A stretch of DNA of 64,000 bases from Promethearchaeota archaeon (GCA_019058445.1 JAHPZA010000009.1:448001-512000); one strand, 5' to 3'. Shown: positions 57,902 to 63,824, counted from the stretch's first letter. Translations and numbers: made by a program. The notes: a model not told the origin generated them from the letters alone.

Positions 57902-58822
57902 ATGGAAAGAATACCACAAATTAAACTGGAAATAACTGAGAAAAAAGGAAAAGAATGGCTAGGTCTTCAGATGACTACAGAAAAACAACTTGAGTCCCTT
58001 CTATGGTACTTAGAACATCCAAAATTGCAAGAAAATCCAAAACTGCTCGAAGAAATAACTGAACTTTATTTTATTGCAAAAGCAAGCGGATTTATGAAAA
58101 TGGAAAGTATTATTCGTAAATTAGATCAACTAAGTATTACATTAGGAAAATTTGATTATACTGAAAAAGAAGAAGAATTAGATAAAAAGCCAAAGTTTCT
58201 AAATTATCCTCAAGAAATTAAAGAATTAAGAAAAAAAATTGAGGTTTTAATACAATCACCATATGGTACAAGCCTCCCTGAAACTACTCAACAATTAATT
58301 ATTAATTTTATTAATTACTTGAATCATCCGGATTTACATAAAAGACCTAAATTATTCGATGATATATTTGAAAAATACGAGGAAGCTAAAGCCACGGATT
58401 TTATGAAGATGCAATCTTTCAATGATATGTTGAACATGCTTGAAATCAAACTTGGAGCAATTAACGAAGATATGAAACAGTATAAAACACTCGAGGAAAA
58501 AATAGAAGACTTAGAAGATGAAAAGAAAAGAATATCCGAAGAATGGAATAAATTAGATTTGGAACGAGAAGCTTTAATTACTGAAAAAGAAAAAATAGCT
58601 AAAGAACGGGATGTACTGAAAGATGAAAATAAAAAATTAAAGGATGATTTAGAAGCTATAAAAAAAGAATGGGTCAAAATTGAAAACGAAAACAAAAAGT
58701 TAGAAGAGGAAACAAATAGTTTAATCAAAGAACGGCAAACATTAAATGAAGAGCAAAAAAGACTTGAATATGAAAGACAGAGATTAGAAAATTCCCATAA
58801 TACTGATATTAATCTGATCTAA
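57902..58822 (+). CDS. Hypothetical protein with a duplicated helical domain and a C-terminal coiled coil
   Basis: Internal repeat YLEHPKL..NPKLLEEI...AKASGFMKM / YLNHPDL..RPKLFDDI...AKATDFMKM, followed by E/K-rich heptads. Confidence 0.8.
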   Translation: MERIPQIKLEITEKKGKEWLGLQMTTEKQLESLLWYLEHPKLQENPKLLEEITELYFIAKASGFMKMESIIRKLDQLSITLGKFDYTEKEEELDKKPKFLNYPQEIKELRKKIEVLIQSPYGTSLPETTQQLIINFINYLNHPDLHKRPKLFDDIFEKYEEAKATDFMKMQSFNDMLNMLEIKLGAINEDMKQYKTLEEKIEDLEDEKKRISEEWNKLDLEREALITEKEKIAKERDVLKDENKKLKDDLEAIKKEWVKIENENKKLEEETNSLIKERQTLNEEQKRLEYERQRLENSHNTDINLI

Positions 58823-58934
58823 ACACTTTACTAAAATTATTGTTTTCTTAATCTATCTTAAAAAAAATTCTTTTTAGAATTTTCAATATTAAAAATTTGA
58901 AATAGCTTAAATTCTATAATTATTTTTAAAGTAT

Positions 58935-60053
58935 ATGGCTAATTCGACTAATAATTTTGATATTGCTGTTATTGGTGCTGGCCCAGGTGGTTCTTTTGCA
59001 GCAAAAGCCAGTGCTGAAATGGGATACAAAACTTTATTAATTGATAAGGAACAAATCAGAGAAAGTGGTCGGTATAAAGCATGTGGCGGAGCTATTGCTT
59101 GGGAACTAGTTGAAGAAATTAATTATCCTGAAGATAAAATAGCAAGAGTAATAGAATCATTAGAATTACATCATGTTGATGGAGAGGATTTTTCCAAAAA
59201 GGGAAAGGGGGCTGTTATTTGGCGTAGTACGTTCGATAAGTTTTTAACAGATATAGCAATTGAAAGTGGAGCAATCTTAAAAGAGAAAGAAATGCTTATT
59301 TATATAGAAAAAAATAATGATATTTATCGTATTAGAACAAAAAACGAAAATTATAATGCAAAGTATGTCATTGCTGCTGATGGGGTTACTTCTCCCACAT
59401 TAAAATTATTGAAGTGGCCTTATTTTGAAAAGGAAAACCTAATTCTAACAATTACAAAAGAAATGAAAACTACGAATTCTTATATTAATAAAATCTTAGG
59501 CTCTGATACAGTTCATTTATTTTTTGGGATTAAAAACCTTATTCAAATTGGGTATGCCTGGTTGTTTCCAAAAGCTGAAACTATCACTGTTGGATGGGGC
59601 AACCAAATAAACCTAGTTAAGAATTCTCGAATAGAGTTTGATAAATTTGTATCATTACCATTTGTTAAAACTGCCTTAAAAGACTCAAATTTAGAAATAT
59701 TTAAGCCCCATCTAATTCCTGTCGGTTTAAGACCAAAACTTTATGAAGATAACGTGTTTGCAGTTGGTGATGCAGGAGGAATAGTTGATCCTATAAGTGG
59801 GAAAGGCATTCCGTATGCGATGATGTCTGGACAATTTGCGATTGAAGCAATCAATACTGGGGAAAAGAGAGATAAACCAGATAAATTAGGTACATTTTAC
59901 GAAAAAAGTTTAGATAGAAAGTTTCTTAAAATCTTAAAAGCGAAACGAGTAGCACGTGATAGAATCTTTCAGAATGATGAAAGTTTGAAGAAATTTTTAT
60001 CTTTATGGGAGAAATATAGATCCTCTCAGATTGTAATGGGAAAAATGATCTAA
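58935..60053 (+). CDS. Geranylgeranyl reductase family FAD-dependent oxidoreductase
   Basis: Motifs IGAGPGG, KACGG, RSTFDKFL, AADG, GYAWLFP and VGDAGG..DPISGKGI. Confidence 0.88.
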   Translation: MANSTNNFDIAVIGAGPGGSFAAKASAEMGYKTLLIDKEQIRESGRYKACGGAIAWELVEEINYPEDKIARVIESLELHHVDGEDFSKKGKGAVIWRSTFDKFLTDIAIESGAILKEKEMLIYIEKNNDIYRIRTKNENYNAKYVIAADGVTSPTLKLLKWPYFEKENLILTITKEMKTTNSYINKILGSDTVHLFFGIKNLIQIGYAWLFPKAETITVGWGNQINLVKNSRIEFDKFVSLPFVKTALKDSNLEIFKPHLIPVGLRPKLYEDNVFAVGDAGGIVDPISGKGIPYAMMSGQFAIEAINTGEKRDKPDKLGTFYEKSLDRKFLKILKAKRVARDRIFQNDESLKKFLSLWEKYRSSQIVMGKMI

Positions 60054-60092
60054 TTCAATTTTAAAATAAAATATAAATGGTGATTATTTTAT

Positions 60093-60641
60093 ATGCTAGT
60101 AGCAATTACAGGCGCTTCTGGAGCTCAAATAGCGATTAAATTATTAGAGATTTTAAAAGAAAAGGGAATTAAAGTTGAGTTAATAATATCAAAAATAGCA
60201 GAAGTAATTATAAATACTGAAACTGAATATAAAGTTTCGGATATTCGAAAAATAGCTACGAAAAATTATGATTTTGATGATTTAGCAGCAGCCCCTGCTA
60301 GTGGATCTTACAAATTTGATGCGATGGTTATAGTTCCATGTACTATGAAAACGTTAGCTGCAATAGCAAATGGGATCGCAGATAATTTGATTACTAGAGC
60401 GGCTGACGTAGCAATAAAAGAAAAAAGGAAACTTATACTTGTGGTCAGAGAAAGCCCATTTAGCGCTATCCATCTAGAAAATATGCTGAAATTGGCAAGA
60501 TTAGGAGTTGTGATTGCTCCTCCAATACCTTCTTATTATATAAAGCCTGAGTCTGTTGAGGAGTTGATTGAACATTCGGTAGGGAGAATTCTTGACCAAT
60601 TAGGTATTGAAAGCAATATAAAAAGATGGGGAGATAATTAA
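60093..60641 (+). CDS. ubiX: Flavin prenyltransferase UbiX
   Basis: Motifs AITGASG, ASGS, VPCTMKTLAAIANG, RAADVAIKE, RESP and HLENML. Confidence 0.93.
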   Translation: MLVAITGASGAQIAIKLLEILKEKGIKVELIISKIAEVIINTETEYKVSDIRKIATKNYDFDDLAAAPASGSYKFDAMVIVPCTMKTLAAIANGIADNLITRAADVAIKEKRKLILVVRESPFSAIHLENMLKLARLGVVIAPPIPSYYIKPESVEELIEHSVGRILDQLGIESNIKRWGDN

Positions 60642-60658
60642 TTATTTTATAAAATATA

Positions 60659-61783
60659 TTATTGGTTTAACCATTTATATAACTCACCAAGAATAATACA
60701 TTTATTTCTTTGACCTTTTAGTTTTTCTATATTTTCCACATTCATCAACCATAAGCAGGAACGTAATTCATTTTTAAGTGTTCTTATCTCTTTAAGGGTA
60801 TTTGAAATAGAATTACTTTTTCTATCTTTCCAGGCGGATTTTAAAAATTTATAGGCAAATCCCCCGATATCAGCACCTAAGGCGATGGACTTTGCTATAT
60901 CAATCCCTGTTTTTAAACCTCCAGTGCCAATTAGTAATTTTTGAGTCGCACTTCTAACATAAATGATGCTAACTGGTGTAGGTATACCCCATTCTCTAAA
61001 TATTTCGGCAGGATCTCGAGTGTATTTTTGATTGTCAAAATTGTTGCGCTTGGATTCAATTGCTGCAAAACTTGTACCTCCTGTTCCTCCAACATCAAAA
61101 CCATCAAAACCAAGCTTATCAAGTTCCATCGCCAAATCTCGGTTGAAACCCGTTCCAACTTCTTTTGCAATTATTGGTATCTTATGCTTTTTTCGTATTT
61201 TTTGAAAATTTTCGCGAAAAAGTTTATAGGAAATATCTCCTTTATCCTGAACTAATTCATGTAAGGCATTCAAATGAATTGCCATCACATCAGCATGTAT
61301 CATCTCGATACATTTACTAAAACTTTCCACATTAAATTTTTCTTCACTTACTTGACCAATACCAATATTACCAATTATTGGGATATTTGGAGCAACTTCG
61401 CGTGTAACTTCAAATGAACTTAATAGAGCAGGGTCTTCAATTCCAGCACGTTGACTTCCTACGCTCATTATAATATTTTCTTCTTCTGCAGACCTTGCCA
61501 AAATTTCATTAATTTCTTTTGAAACCGGGTGACCCCCTGTAATTGCAGAAATACAAATTGGAGCTGAAATCTTTTTATTAAAAAATTTGATCGAAAGATC
61601 AATATCTTCAAAATCCACTTCTGGGAGAGGATGGTGAATCAATTTAATATCATCAAAATAATTTTCTAAATGTTGTACATTGTATTCTAAGGGAATTTTA
61701 AGATGTTCTATTTTTCGATCCATTATTTCCTTAGATTGATTTGGTTCAGGCATATCTTCTTTTCTAAATCTACTACTTGTCAT
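60659..61783 (-). CDS. fni: Type 2 isopentenyl-diphosphate isomerase
   Basis: Motifs RKIEH, AITGG, VGSQR, IHLNALHE, KEVGTG, GGTSF and TGG. Confidence 0.93.
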   Translation of the reverse strand: MTSSRFRKEDMPEPNQSKEIMDRKIEHLKIPLEYNVQHLENYFDDIKLIHHPLPEVDFEDIDLSIKFFNKKISAPICISAITGGHPVSKEINEILARSAEEENIIMSVGSQRAGIEDPALLSSFEVTREVAPNIPIIGNIGIGQVSEEKFNVESFSKCIEMIHADVMAIHLNALHELVQDKGDISYKLFRENFQKIRKKHKIPIIAKEVGTGFNRDLAMELDKLGFDGFDVGGTGGTSFAAIESKRNNFDNQKYTRDPAEIFREWGIPTPVSIIYVRSATQKLLIGTGGLKTGIDIAKSIALGADIGGFAYKFLKSAWKDRKSNSISNTLKEIRTLKNELRSCLWLMNVENIEKLKGQRNKCIILGELYKWLNQ

Positions 61784-61792
61784 AATTTAAAC

Positions 61793-62608
61793 TTATTTAT
61801 TAATTAATATGTTTGTACAATTAATATTTTGATTTTTCAATGACTTGTATATATATCCTTCCTTAAGTCCATTTATTAATTGCACTGGAATATTATAAGT
61901 ACAAATTTGCTTAATAAAGTTAAGTTTGCCTTTAATTCCACCAGTAACATCTATTTTTTGACCTAGATTTGCTAAATTAAGACTATCTAATTCGTCAGAA
62001 TTACATTCTGTAGCCAGTGTGCATTCCCCATTAGTATCTTTGTCATTGATATATATACCATCCGTTTCCATTGTGAAAATTACTTTTGATACCGAATATT
62101 TTTTCAAATTTTCACATAATTCAAGAATAATCTGATCTCCTGAGATAATTGAAAACGAGCCTTGTTTATCAAGAATAATATCACCATATAAAATAGGCAA
62201 GATATTGAGGTCTAAGGCCGCCTTGATAATTTCGATAGAGTAAGTTGAAATTTTATGAGAATCTTTAATAAAAATGCTGGAAGCTTGAATTGATAAGGCC
62301 GGATATTTTTTTTCTAAAAATAAATTAATTAAATAGGAATTGAACTTATTCATTGATTGGTGAGTTTGAGTAAGTCCAAATATTTGATTTTCAATAGATG
62401 GATTAAGACCTTTCGAAATACTGTACTGCTTTGCAAGAGGATGACCAAATGAACCCCCACCATGAATTAAAATTACTTTTTCATCAGCATCGATTATCTG
62501 CTGTACTGCGCTTTTTGCAACTTCTTCTCGTATAGAAAATGGTTTATTTTTATCAGTTAATAAACCTCCACCTAACTTTAACAGTATAATTTTATTTTTG
62601 TCCTTCAA
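61793..62608 (-). CDS. ipk: Isopentenyl phosphate kinase
   Basis: Motifs LKLGG..TDK, HGGGSFGH, SGDQI and DVTGGI..K; located between mvk and fni. Confidence 0.92.
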   Translation of the reverse strand: MKDKNKIILLKLGGGLLTDKNKPFSIREEVAKSAVQQIIDADEKVILIHGGGSFGHPLAKQYSISKGLNPSIENQIFGLTQTHQSMNKFNSYLINLFLEKKYPALSIQASSIFIKDSHKISTYSIEIIKAALDLNILPILYGDIILDKQGSFSIISGDQIILELCENLKKYSVSKVIFTMETDGIYINDKDTNGECTLATECNSDELDSLNLANLGQKIDVTGGIKGKLNFIKQICTYNIPVQLINGLKEGYIYKSLKNQNINCTNILINK

Positions 62609-62621
62609 TTTAAATTAACAC

Positions 62622-63588
62622 TCAACCTATCATTGTTCTCCAGGCATCAAATCCTTCTTGTTCGATGGCCTTAGCAATTTTCTCTTGTAATTCTTCGCTT
62701 TCAGCTAAAGCTATTACCAATCCTCCGCGTCCTGTTCCCGTCATTTTAGCGCCTAATGCACCATTATTTAGTGCAATTTCTACTAATCTATCATTTAATT
62801 CTCCAGAAACCGTGATTTGTTGAAGTAATTTATGATTTTGATTCATTAAATCACCTAAAGTGTTGGAATCTCCTTCAAGGAGAGCTTTTTTTGCTTTTTC
62901 TGCTAGAATTTTATAATCACCGAATATTTTCTCAAATTTTTCTGGAGATTCTTCCTTTAAACTCCGAACATCAGCAACTACCTCCGTTGTTGAAGCAGTT
63001 ATTCCTGAATTTGCGATTACTAATGGCATCTTTTTTGGTGTTTTTAAAAGGTCCATAGTATTCTTTCCACCACTTAAGTTCTTTACAAACCATATCAATC
63101 CTCCATATGTTGAGGCTGTATTATCTATTCCTGAGGGAGTTCCGTGATATGCTTTTTCACCTTCATAAGCCGCTGCATTTATCTTTTCATCATCTAATCC
63201 AAGATTAAACCTTTCGTTTAAAGCGCGAGCTAAAGATGTACATTGAGCAGCAGAAGCTCCAACTCCACTCGCAGCAATCAAATCTCCTGCAAATGTTATT
63301 TCAAGTTTCTGACTCTGGATATCTATTTTTAAATGTTCAAGTACATTTTTAATAGATTGCATAGCATCATCATATTTCATTTGTTTATAACCTGGTGTAG
63401 CAGGCCTCTGATCATCTACAGTCCAACCTTGACCATTAACAATTTTAACTTCAGCTGTTGTATAGGAACTTAAAGCTGATGCGATTGCAGGAAGACCATA
63501 CACTACAAAATGATTGCGTTTAATCCTGAATTGGGAATTAAATTTCGCCAAAAAGTATAGTCTTTCCATATCCTTTTCCAGTACCCAA
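62622..63588 (-). CDS. mvk: Mevalonate kinase, split: exon 1 63588-63544, exon 2 63512-62622 (311 aa when joined)
   Basis: Exon 1 starts at TTG with GGTGA 5 nt upstream (an in-frame ATG at 63600 is an alternative) and encodes MGTGKGYGKTILFGE. Exon 2 encodes HFVVYGLPAIA..., the GHMP motif ASGVGASAA, HGTPSGIDN and GAKMTGTGRGG. The track's N-terminus MERLYFLAKF... is an off-frame reading through the insert. Confidence 0.9.
63513..63543 (-). other. 31-nt insert in mvk, candidate BHB/BHL-type mRNA intron
   Basis: Sense sequence ATTTAATTCCCAATTCAGGATTAAACGCAAT. Removing it restores the GE|HFVVYG motif and the frame. It folds into an 8-bp intron stem with a 3-nt bulge at the 5' junction and a 4-position central helix. 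Confidence 0.7.
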
Positions 63589-63698
63589 ATTATTCACCAT
63601 TTATTCTCGTATTTTATGACAAAATCTATGAAATAAATAATTCTTACCTATATTTAAAAAGTTGGATATAATAATTTATCCAGAAATTATTAATTTAT

Positions 63699-63824
63699 CT
63701 ACTTATTCTGCCTATTCAAATATCCTACCATACTTATAATATCCAATTCCAAGCTTCTATACGTTTGATTATAAAATTGTTTTAATTCTTCAACCTTTTT
63801 TTTCCCTAGTTAGGTTAGATTATA
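63699..63824 (-). pseudogene. Possible decayed winged-helix (PadR/MarR-like) gene end
   Basis: Reads YNLT*LGKKKVEELKQFYNQTYRSLELDIISMVGYLNRQNK*. YxLTxxG is typical of wHTH wings; in-frame TAA at 63810-63812. Confidence 0.3.

What the first reader, a model, noticed from the sequence alone, without database searches (positions are those of the whole stretch)
63513..63543. Candidate tRNA-type (bulge-helix-bulge/loop) intron inside the mevalonate kinase mRNA of a probable Asgard archaeon
Seen: the sense strand reads ...GGA AAG ACT ATA CTT TTT GGC GAA | ATTTAATTCCCAATTCAGGATTAAACGCAAT | CAT TTT GTA GTG TAT GGT CTT.... The 31-nt insert puts TAA in frame and shifts the frame. Removing it gives the canonical GKTILFGEHFVVYG motif and a 311-aa enzyme with no other lesion. 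Manual fold: central helix GGCG (exon 1) with CGCA (insert; 3 Watson-Crick pairs plus G.A); 3-nt bulge AA|A; stem UUUAAUUC/GGAUUAAA (8 bp with one G-U) closing an 8-nt loop; then AU|C at the 3' junction, in a loop closed by a 10-bp exon-exon helix AAGACUAUAC/GUAUGGUCUU. The insert partitions as 1+8+8+8+4+2=31, so both junctions fall after the second nucleotide of each bulge position. Established: that is where archaeal tRNA splicing endonuclease (EndA) cuts BHB motifs; relaxed BHL forms are cut by some EndA types; the classic mRNA precedent is the cbf5 intron of crenarchaeotes. Inference: this organism splices a metabolic mRNA with EndA plus RtcB. I am not aware of an mvk intron, and mRNA splicing in the lineage closest to eukaryotes would be notable.
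Basis: partly seen in the sequence, partly recalled or inferred. Interest (0 to 1): 0.93.

Follow-up and report, generated by a model that had tools for sequence, protein, structure and literature searches.

The report
Spliced mini-intron in Asgard mevalonate kinase
The only mevalonate kinase gene of this Loki-type (Asgard) archaeon is broken by a 31-base hairpin insert that is kept, with compensating base changes, in about 40 related genomes. It is almost certainly a tRNA-type intron that must be cut out of the mRNA before the enzyme can be made, a kind of splicing published for only one other archaeal protein gene.

Summary
Observation confirmed. On the minus strand, 31 nt (63513-63543) split the GE|H motif of mevalonate kinase. 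Removing them gives a 311-aa enzyme, the only mvk found in this 4.6-Mb genome.

It is not an artefact or a dead gene:
- An independent Logan contig carries the insert unchanged.
- 40 distinct relatives (Promethearchaeota, one GTDB family) carry a 28-31-nt insert at exactly the same site.
- Intron-bearing genes have dN/dS 0.11, against 0.10 for intronless ones.
- The intron hairpin and the exon/intron central helix show compensatory changes.
- Synonymous exon sites (GGC, ACY, GGT CTT) that build the helices are fixed only where the intron is present.
- The state flips at least 7 times on the gene tree, always precisely.

The geometry fits a relaxed BHB (HBh') substrate of EndA: a 3-4-bp central helix, an AA|A bulge, an 8-bp h' stem, and a 3' site in a loop clamped by an exon-exon helix. 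EndA and RtcB genes are present. My scan found at least 8 more ~30-nt inserts of this shape in other genes of this genome.

No RNA data exist, so splicing is inferred. Published precedent is cbf5 plus a Haloferax 5' UTR. This scan had already followed up the same mvk intron in at least four other genomes.

The parts
63586..63588 (-). Probable TTG start codon of mvk, 5 nt downstream of a GGTGA Shine-Dalgarno-like motif (63594-63598). An in-frame ATG at 63598-63600 is the alternative start.
   Evidence: relatives have GGTGA, a 5-nt spacer, then ATG GGA ACT GGA at the aligned position. This start gives 15 + 296 = 311 aa.
63544..63588 (-). Exon 1 (15 codons, MGTGKGYGKTILFGE). It ends after the Glu of the GE|H motif.
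   Evidence: Intronless homologues read ...FGE HFVVYG without interruption.
63546..63549 (-). Central helix H, exon strand (GGCG).
   Evidence: columns 23-25 are paired with 53-55 in 40/40 sequences, with two C-G to U-A double changes; the Gly codon is GGC in 34/36 intron genes against 6/44 intronless genes.
63543..63545 (-). 5' bulge AA|A. The inferred cut lies between 63544 and 63543.
   Evidence: Read from the sequence. The position is fixed by the exact GAA|CAT junction of intronless relatives.
63513..63543 (-). 31-nt intron.
   Evidence: The same site is occupied in 40 distinct relatives with lengths of 31, 30 or 28 nt.
63519..63542 (-). Intron hairpin h': arms 63535-63542 and 63519-63526 (8 bp including one G-U), loop 63527-63534.
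   Evidence: 87% of cells are paired and 4 of 8 pairs show changes on both sides; the hairpin is recovered by constrained folding in the relatives.
63515..63518 (-). Central helix H, intron strand (CGCA).
   Evidence: In 12/40 relatives the outermost position is G-U or G-C; here it is G.A.
63512..63514 (-). 3' splice-site triplet AU|C. The inferred cut lies between 63513 and 63512. It sits in an internal loop, not in a closed 3-nt bulge.
   Evidence: the A at the first position is invariant in 40/40. Only one exon-exon pair (U-A) can form directly next to it.
63492..63564 (-). Exon-exon clamp helix (63555-63564 with 63492-63501, extendable by GG/CC). It closes the loop that holds the 3' site.
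   Evidence: 10.5 of 12 positions are paired in intron genes against 7.7 of 12 in intronless genes; this goes with the intron in about 6.5 of 7 independent contrasts and never the other way.
62622..63512 (-). Exon 2 (296 codons plus stop), the mevalonate kinase body.
   Evidence: TIGR00549 scores 211.8 bits (cut-off 163), matching profile positions 11-276. The missing first ten positions are encoded by exon 1.
60659..62608 (-). Downstream genes on the same strand: isopentenyl phosphate kinase (61793-62608) and type 2 IPP isomerase (60659-61783).
   Evidence: NF040647 scores 212.9 bits and TIGR02151 scores 349.8 bits.

Best explanation
The 31 nt are an archaeal endonuclease-type (bulge-helix-bulge family) intron in the mvk pre-mRNA.

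Proposed fold of the transcript:
- Exon GGCG pairs with intron CGC(A).
- The last two exon bases and the first intron base (AA|A) bulge out.
- An 8-bp intron hairpin stacks on the other side of the bulge.
- A 10-12-bp helix between the two exons clamps the loop that holds the 3' site (AU|C).

Proposed steps (inferred):
- The splicing endonuclease EndA cuts after the second base of each triplet.
- RtcB joins GGCGAA to CATTTT.
- The spliced mRNA encodes a 311-aa mevalonate kinase, the first gene of an mvk-ipk-fni run.

Shown: the structure, its conservation and covariation, purifying selection on the split gene, and the presence of the enzyme genes. Inferred: the cleavage and ligation themselves and which enzymes do them.
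For: 1. The insert is real DNA. An independent Logan contig is identical across it.
2. An insert sits at the identical site in 9 of 14 family genomes that have this mvk type and in 36 of 79 named Promethearchaeota loci. Lengths are 31, 30 and 28 nt, so length is not tied to the reading frame. All 40 distinct sequences reach a stop within 1-7 codons if unspliced.
3. The split genes are under the same constraint as intact ones: median dN/dS 0.107 against 0.100. All 296 downstream codons are open in all 41.
4. Covariation. In h', 4 of 8 pairs change on both sides. In H, 40/40 are paired, with C-G to U-A double changes. The structure gives 86% paired cells against 40-48% when the partners are slid.
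5. Exon synonymous sites that build H and the clamp helix are fixed only when the intron is present. This holds in phylogenetically independent contrasts: about 6 of 7 go the same way, none the other way, p about 0.03.
6. The state changes at least 7 times on well-supported branches, always restoring exactly GAA|CAT. The basal rows carry the intron.
7. EndA (C9:770313-770918) and RtcB (C1:114713-116020) genes are present. Asgard EndA is reported as a broad-specificity type with the L1 loop (PMC5829648).
8. The splicing-competent fold lies 0.8 kcal/mol above the MFE here, with a median of 1.75 across the 40 sequences.
9. The same architecture recurs in other genes of this genome: 8 hits of 29-31 nt against 1 in a mirror-topology control.
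10. This is the only mvk in the genome.
Against: - No RNA evidence of any kind: no spliced read and no excised circle.
- The motif is not canonical. In this genome the central helix has 3 standard pairs plus a G.A. The 3' cut site is not in a closed 3-nt bulge, because no adjacent h helix can form.
- RNAalifold did not recover the named structure. It preferred a weak exon 1/exon 2 pairing that shows no covariation. The single-sequence MFE also uses that alternative pairing in place of H.
- Only one EndA gene was found, and by sequence it is closest to the homotetrameric M. jannaschii enzyme. The second subunit expected for a broad-specificity heterotetramer was not found. The genome is 92.6% complete.
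Confidence: 0.85

Rival explanations
1. The insert is removed from the RNA, or otherwise neutralised, by a mechanism other than EndA plus RtcB. Candidates are another endonuclease/ligase pair or an unknown RNA-processing activity that recognises the conserved hairpin and the AUUU...UAAACGC ends.
For: Cleavage was not observed. The 3' site is not in a canonical bulge. The intron ends are more conserved in sequence than a purely structural BHB would need. A second EndA subunit was not found.
Against: The positions of both junctions relative to the covarying 4-nt helix and hairpin are exactly those of EndA substrates: a cut after base 2 of a 3-nt bulge, 3' of each helix strand (rule as stated in PMC2738675). 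Other inserts in this genome are unrelated in sequence but share the same geometry.
Confidence: 0.06
2. This is translational recoding. Ribosomes bypass (hop over) the 31 nt, as in phage T4 gene 60, so no RNA splicing occurs.
For: In this genome a stop codon follows one codon after the break. A hairpin starts at the beginning of the gap, which superficially resembles gene 60.
Against: There is no matched take-off and landing codon. Exon 1 ends in GAA or GAG. The last three insert bases are AAT, TAT, AAA, TAA, TAC, CAA or TAG. The position of the first stop varies from 1 to 7 codons. The covarying exon/intron helix and the clamp helix have no role in hopping.
Confidence: 0.04
3. The gene is a pseudogene or decaying copy, and another kinase does the job.
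For: The frame is broken. The genome holds 8 other GHMP-kinase-like genes.
Against: dN/dS is 0.107 across 41 split genes, the same as for intact ones. There is no other lesion in 296 codons in any of them. The insert itself is conserved and covaries. No other gene reaches the mevalonate kinase cut-off; the next best carries the galactokinase-type GEHQDY motif.
Confidence: 0.03
4. The insert is an assembly or sequencing artefact.
For: None beyond the fact that the genome is a metagenome assembly.
Against: An independent contig is identical across the insert. The same insert is present in dozens of assemblies from different studies.
Confidence: 0.01

Closest known systems
cbf5 (pseudouridine synthase) pre-mRNA intron of Crenarchaeota (Watanabe 2002; Yoshinari 2006; Yokobori 2009, PMC2738675)
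   Same: A short intron inside a protein-coding sequence. It has an unconventional (relaxed) BHB at the exon-intron borders, with cuts between the 2nd and 3rd residues of the bulges. It splits a catalytic motif. Its distribution is patchy, with gain or loss among close relatives. The lineage's endonuclease tolerates relaxed motifs.
   Different: The gene is different (mevalonate kinase, lipid precursor pathway) and so is the phylum (Promethearchaeota/Asgard, mesophilic sediment). A distal exon-exon clamp helix stands in for an adjacent h helix. Splicing has been shown by cDNA and in vitro cleavage for cbf5 but not here.
BHB intron in the 5' UTR of Haloferax volcanii HVO_1309 (Schwarz 2020, PMC7714728)
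   Same: An mRNA is a substrate of the tRNA splicing endonuclease.
   Different: That intron lies in a UTR, is 46 nt long with a canonical BHB, and does not interrupt the reading frame. It was verified by circRNA-seq and in vitro cleavage.
Non-canonical tRNA introns of Asgard archaea (bioRxiv 10.64898/2026.10.13.758758; Kaneta 2018, PMC5829648)
   Same: The same presumed enzyme and the same motif grammar (H, bulges, h'). The same lineages carry unusually many introns. In this genome ARAGORN finds only 23 tRNA genes, 19 of them called with an intron.
   Different: The host RNA here is an mRNA. Neither paper reports mRNA introns; the word 'mRNA' occurs 0 times in the preprint.
HAC1/XBP1 unconventional mRNA splicing in eukaryotes (from my own knowledge; PMC5829648 only lists a paper on RtcB and HAC1 splicing in its references)
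   Same: Non-spliceosomal excision of a short mRNA segment at stem-loop sites, with RtcB-type ligation in metazoa. The excision changes the reading frame.
   Different: The endonuclease is IRE1, not EndA/TSEN. That splicing is regulatory and stress-induced. No homology is implied.

Membership tests
Archaeal endonuclease-type (BHB/HBh') intron | [quoted passage not shown] | tested here: met
   The three inner pairs are standard in 40/40 sequences, with two double (C-G to U-A) changes. The outermost pair is G.A here and G-U or G-C in 12/40. By the classifier of the 2026 preprint, this genome's copy is 'relaxed' (3 of 4 pairs) and 12 relatives are canonical HBh'.
Archaeal endonuclease-type (BHB/HBh') intron | A 3-nt bulge at the 5' site, cut after its second base and flanked by H and h'. 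| tested here: met
   AA|A lies between GGCG and the 8-bp hairpin. The junction is fixed by intronless relatives.
Archaeal endonuclease-type (BHB/HBh') intron | A 3-nt bulge at the 3' site closed by an exon-exon helix h directly next to it (strict hBHBh'). | tested here: not met
   Only one U-A pair can form next to AU|C. The site lies in an internal loop of 5 by 13 nt closed by a distal 10-12-bp exon-exon helix. It therefore fits the relaxed HBh'/BHL class, not the strict motif.
Archaeal endonuclease-type (BHB/HBh') intron | An intron-side helix h' supported by covariation. | tested here: met
   87% of cells are paired and 4 of 8 pairs have changes on both sides. Slid controls give 40-48% paired.
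Archaeal endonuclease-type (BHB/HBh') intron | EndA and an RtcB-type ligase encoded by the genome. | tested here: met
   PF01974 and PF02778 match at C9:770346-770843, and PF01139 matches at C1:114713-116020. The closest solved structure is 1a79. A second EndA subunit was not found.
Archaeal endonuclease-type (BHB/HBh') intron | Spliced RNA and/or an excised (circular) intron observed; cleavage by EndA in vitro. | not testable with these tools
   No run listed as holding the stretch is on record as RNA.
Translational bypass (T4 gene 60 type) | Matching take-off and landing codons flanking the gap. | tested here: not met
   The take-off codon would be GAA or GAG. The last three insert bases are AAT, TAT, AAA, TAA, TAC, CAA or TAG.
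Group I / group II self-splicing introns and other curated RNA families | A match to a curated covariance model. | tested here: not met
   An Rfam scan of 63300-63800 at E <= 1 gave nothing at the insert. The size (31 nt) is also far too small, from general knowledge.
Mevalonate kinase (TIGR00549) | A score above the curated cut-off, and the GE-H motif restored by removing the insert. | tested here: met
   Exon 2 alone scores 211.8 bits against a cut-off of 163.05. Joining the exons gives GKTILFGE-HFVVYG, as in 45 intronless homologues.

The most novel reading that the evidence does not exclude
In this Loki-type Asgard archaeon, endonuclease-type mRNA splicing is routine rather than a one-gene curiosity. 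A class of about 30-nt mini-introns interrupts the coding sequence of at least nine genes. These include the sole mevalonate kinase, gyrB, a ChlD-type chelatase, a Sir2-like deacetylase and a thiolase-like gene. The introns are unrelated in sequence and are lost precisely and repeatedly. Production of membrane-lipid precursors therefore depends on the tRNA-splicing machinery, which could couple lipid synthesis to RNA-processing capacity.
Probability: 0.6. Interest if true: 0.9.

Novelty: new member of a known kind. Interest (0 to 1): 0.8.

Why it matters
Published work documents endonuclease-type splicing of an archaeal coding sequence for one gene only (cbf5, in Crenarchaeota). PMC7714728 still said so in 2020.

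This case adds several things:
- It is a second, unrelated gene, and an essential metabolic one.
- It lies in the archaeal lineage closest to eukaryotes.
- About 40 natural variants carry covariation, which amounts to a ready-made mutational analysis of the substrate.

It has practical consequences. Gene callers truncate or mis-start such genes, so pathway reconstructions of Asgard MAGs can wrongly report mevalonate kinase as missing or aberrant.

It also gives a concrete, testable substrate for asking how relaxed Asgard EndA specificity is, and whether intron loss in archaea goes through spliced RNA.

Tried and rejected
- RNA evidence: none of the runs listed as holding the stretch is on record as RNA.
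- Spliced junction: a degenerate pattern carrying the intron-type synonymous signature found 0 matches in JGI metagenome contigs.
- Loose genome-wide scans (motif plus open-frame test) did not discriminate. Real and mirror-topology counts were 1524 vs 1587, 254 vs 247 and 481 vs 464, because adjacent genes merge by chance. Only a strict version gave a signal: GC-rich H, A in both bulges, h' at least 6 of 8. That gave 8 vs 1 at 29-31 nt. It misses mvk itself, so it gives a lower bound, not a census.
- Covariance model R1 of the intron core finds only mvk in this genome. The next hits (E = 1-8) are noise. The introns of different genes are therefore not one sequence family.
- RNAalifold on the 40 sequences did not return the hairpin, because of register shifts. 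It proposed an exon 1/exon 2 pairing with no covariation, which I set aside.
- Second EndA subunit: not found with PF01974, PF02778 or the EndA protein itself. The one weak hit (C3:126738-126947) is an unrelated gene.
- Second mvk: the C4 paralogue (121.7 bits, below cut-off) has GEHQDY and is galactokinase-like.
- Alternative unspliced 315-aa isoform starting at ATG 63569: the frame is open with an ATG in only 19/40 relatives, so it is not conserved.
- Check of tRNA intron geometry in this genome: the genes are too heavily interrupted for a clean read. Only single clear examples emerged, for example a 21-nt hBHBh' in tRNA-Tyr.
- Rfam: no family at the insert.

Full report
**What is there.**
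The gene lies on the minus strand. From a probable TTG start (63588-63586), preceded by GGTGA as in relatives, it reads MGTGKGYGKTILFGE. After GAA (63546-63544) come 31 nt (63543-63513). Then CAT TTT GTA GTG... opens a 296-codon frame that ends at 62622.

In the exon-1 frame the insert gives ATT TAA. Exon 2 alone scores 211.8 bits on the mevalonate kinase model TIGR00549 (cut-off 163), over profile positions 11-276. The missing first ten positions are what exon 1 encodes.

Downstream on the same strand lie isopentenyl phosphate kinase and type 2 IPP isomerase. Upstream and divergent lie a UbiX prenyltransferase and a geranylgeranyl reductase. This is an isoprenoid-lipid gene cluster.

**Not an artefact.**
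The window is G000:C9:448001-512000 of a 4.6-Mb assembly in 10 contigs, 92.6% complete. A 5151-nt Logan contig from the probable source run covers 63228-63700 with no difference. Diverged contigs in three other sediment runs cross the insert without a gap.

**Not a dead gene.**
This is the only gene in the genome above the mevalonate kinase cut-off. The next best has the galactokinase-type GEHQDY motif and is about 25% identical to mvk homologues.

I collected 91 homologues from whole-genome searches of relatives and from named genome contigs. Nearly all are labelled Promethearchaeota.
- 41 carry an insert at exactly this site. In the named set these are 33 of 31 nt, 2 of 30 nt and 1 of 28 nt.
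- The others read GAA|CAT without interruption.
- Within the window's GTDB family, 9 of the 14 genomes with this mvk type have the insert and 5 lack it. The window's closest relative (86% identity) is one of those that lack it.
- In all 41 the 296 downstream codons are intact.
- Median pairwise dN/dS is 0.107 for insert-bearing genes and 0.100 for intronless ones.
- In all 40 distinct sequences, unspliced reading stops within 1-7 codons.

The insert must therefore be removed or skipped for these genes to be under the selection they visibly are under.

**Structure and covariation.**
- Intron hairpin (8 pairs): 87% paired, and four pairs change on both sides (for example U-A, C-G, A-U at one position).
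- The three inner pairs of the exon/intron central helix are standard in 40/40. Two sequences carry GGUG/CAC in place of GGCG/CGC, a double change.
- The outermost pair is G.A in 28 sequences (including this genome) and G-U or G-C in 12.
- Overall 86% of cells pair, against 40-48% when the partners are slid by 1-3 columns.
- Length variation (28-31 nt) is confined to the hairpin.

The fold constrained to this geometry costs 0.8 kcal/mol more than the MFE here, with a median of 1.75 across the set.

**Exon sites co-vary with intron presence.**
Several synonymous choices are close to fixed in intron-bearing genes and not in intronless ones.

| Codon | Intron genes | Intronless genes |
|---|---|---|
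| Gly before GAA is GGC | 34/36 | 6/44 |
| Thr is ACC or ACT | 36/36 | 12/44 |
| Gly in exon 2 is GGT | 30/36 | 6/44 |
| Leu in exon 2 is CTT | 34/36 | 7/44 |
| Phe in exon 1 is TTT | 36/36 | 16/44 |

These are the bases that form the central helix and a 10-12-bp exon-exon helix. That helix has 10.5 of 12 positions paired with the intron and 7.7 of 12 without it.

On the gene tree the intron state needs 17 changes by parsimony, at least 7 of them forced by well-supported branches. The basal ingroup rows carry the intron. In phylogenetically independent contrasts, the strong exon helix and the GGC codon go with the intron in about 6 of 7 pairs and never against it, with a median p of 0.03. Repeated and exact restoration of GAA|CAT is what loss of a precisely defined intron would look like.

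**Mechanism.**
The cut positions are fixed independently by the intronless genes. They fall after the second base of AA|A and of AU|C, each triplet lying 3' of one strand of the 4-nt central helix. This is the rule for the archaeal splicing endonuclease as stated for cbf5 (PMC2738675) and for Asgard tRNA introns (bioRxiv 10.64898/2026.10.13.758758).

The 5' site is a proper bulge between H and h'. The 3' site is not closed by an adjacent helix, so the motif belongs to the relaxed HBh'/BHL class. That class is cut only by broad-specificity enzymes, and Asgard EndA is reported to be of that kind, (alpha-beta)2 with the L1 loop (PMC5829648).

The genome encodes one EndA, with N- and C-terminal domains in a 202-aa ORF, closest to PDB entry 1a79. 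It also encodes RtcB. I did not find a second EndA subunit.

**Rivals.**
- Translational bypass is not supported. There is no matching landing codon, and the stop position varies.
- Rfam has nothing at the insert.
- An alternative unspliced 315-aa isoform from ATG 63569 is not conserved: the frame is open with an ATG in 19/40.

**Context in this genome.**
Earlier notes of this scan listed other inserts of this kind here.
- I re-read three of them: GH38 at C9:6926-6955, gyrB at C9:608302-608331 and chlD at C9:269043-269072. Each shows a 4-bp exon/intron helix, two 3-nt triplets and an intron hairpin, and removal restores a conserved motif.
- My loose genome-wide scans were swamped by chance fusions of neighbouring genes.
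- A strict scan returned 8 hits of 29-31 nt, against 1 in a mirror-topology control. They include genes with junctions GGG^NGG (Rossmann loop), LHG^N (Sir2-like) and a thiolase-like gene.
- A covariance model of the mvk intron finds none of them. The introns share architecture and size, not sequence.
- ARAGORN finds only 23 tRNA genes, 19 of them called with an intron. This fits a lineage with heavy dependence on EndA.

**What is known.**
In the searched library, endonuclease-type introns in archaeal mRNAs are reported for cbf5 (coding sequence) and for the HVO_1309 5' UTR. A 2020 paper states that cbf5 was the only earlier example (PMC7714728). The 2026 preprint on Asgard tRNA introns does not mention mRNA. 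I found no paper on an mvk intron.

Within this scan, the same mvk intron had already been followed up in at least four other genomes, with the same conclusion.

**Verdict.**
The one missing piece is direct RNA or enzymatic evidence. The feature is a new member (new gene, new phylum, relaxed motif with a distal exon clamp) of a known kind.

Noticed in passing
G000:C4:159314-159342(+), C6:188666-188695(-), C6:752445-752475(+), C9:6926-6955(+), C9:219418-219447(+), C9:269043-269072(-), C9:608302-608331(-), C9:775863-775892(-): Eight further 29-31-nt inserts in protein-coding genes of the same genome, outside the window. Each has a 4-bp exon/intron helix, A-containing 3-nt triplets and a near-perfect hairpin, and removal restores conserved motifs. 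The genes are a GGG^NGG Rossmann-loop gene, a thiolase-like gene, a CxxC Fe-S gene, GH38, a small protein (junction ...APGGV^LCYSKNF...) that I did not identify, chlD, gyrB and a Sir2-like gene. The mirror-topology control gave 1 hit in that length range.
   Followed up: partly
Loci L034-L047 (genomes G011, G013, G015, G017, G018, G020, G021, G023 of the same family; G025, G028, G032, G034, G038, G039 of another family of the same order): About half of the genera in the window's own family lack the 'GKGYGKTILFGEHFVVYG' type of mvk. Their best match is a gene only 32-37% identical, with PGK..LFGEH(A/S)VVYG. Two mevalonate kinase types therefore alternate within one family. No insert was seen at the GE|H site in any of them.
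   Followed up: no
L070, L071, L076, L084, L085, L096, L100, L104, L115, L119: A well-supported clade of ten intronless Loki-type mvk genes sits on contigs labelled Bathyarchaeota or Nitrosopumilales. This could be mislabelled bins or a transfer of the gene out of Promethearchaeota. I did not examine which.
   Followed up: no
G000 whole genome: ARAGORN finds only 23 tRNA genes in 4.6 Mb, 19 of them called with an intron, some with several candidate BHB sites. The tRNA genes seem too interrupted for standard detection.
   Followed up: partly
window 63569 (minus-strand ATG) to 62622: An ORF in the exon-2 frame runs through the insert from an ATG created by the TAT GGA codons (315 aa, lacking the GK/GE motif). 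This is what a gene caller would report. The open frame plus ATG is present in only 19 of 40 relatives, so it looks incidental.
   Followed up: yes
window 63514 and 63529 (alignment A2 columns 57 and 42): The first base of the 3' triplet (A) and one U in the hairpin loop are invariant in all 40 introns although both are unpaired. They may be contacts for the enzyme or another factor.
   Followed up: no
G000:C9:770313-770918 (L128:1219-1827): This is the only EndA-like gene detected. By sequence it is closest to the homotetrameric M. jannaschii enzyme (1a79, E = 2.6e-24). No second paralogue was found, although Asgard EndA is described as heterotetrameric.
   Followed up: partly
window 57902-60641 (+): A geranylgeranyl reductase family gene (58935-60053) and a UbiX flavin prenyltransferase (60093-60641) lie divergent from the mvk-ipk-fni run. 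Together they form an isoprenoid-lipid cluster.
   Followed up: partly
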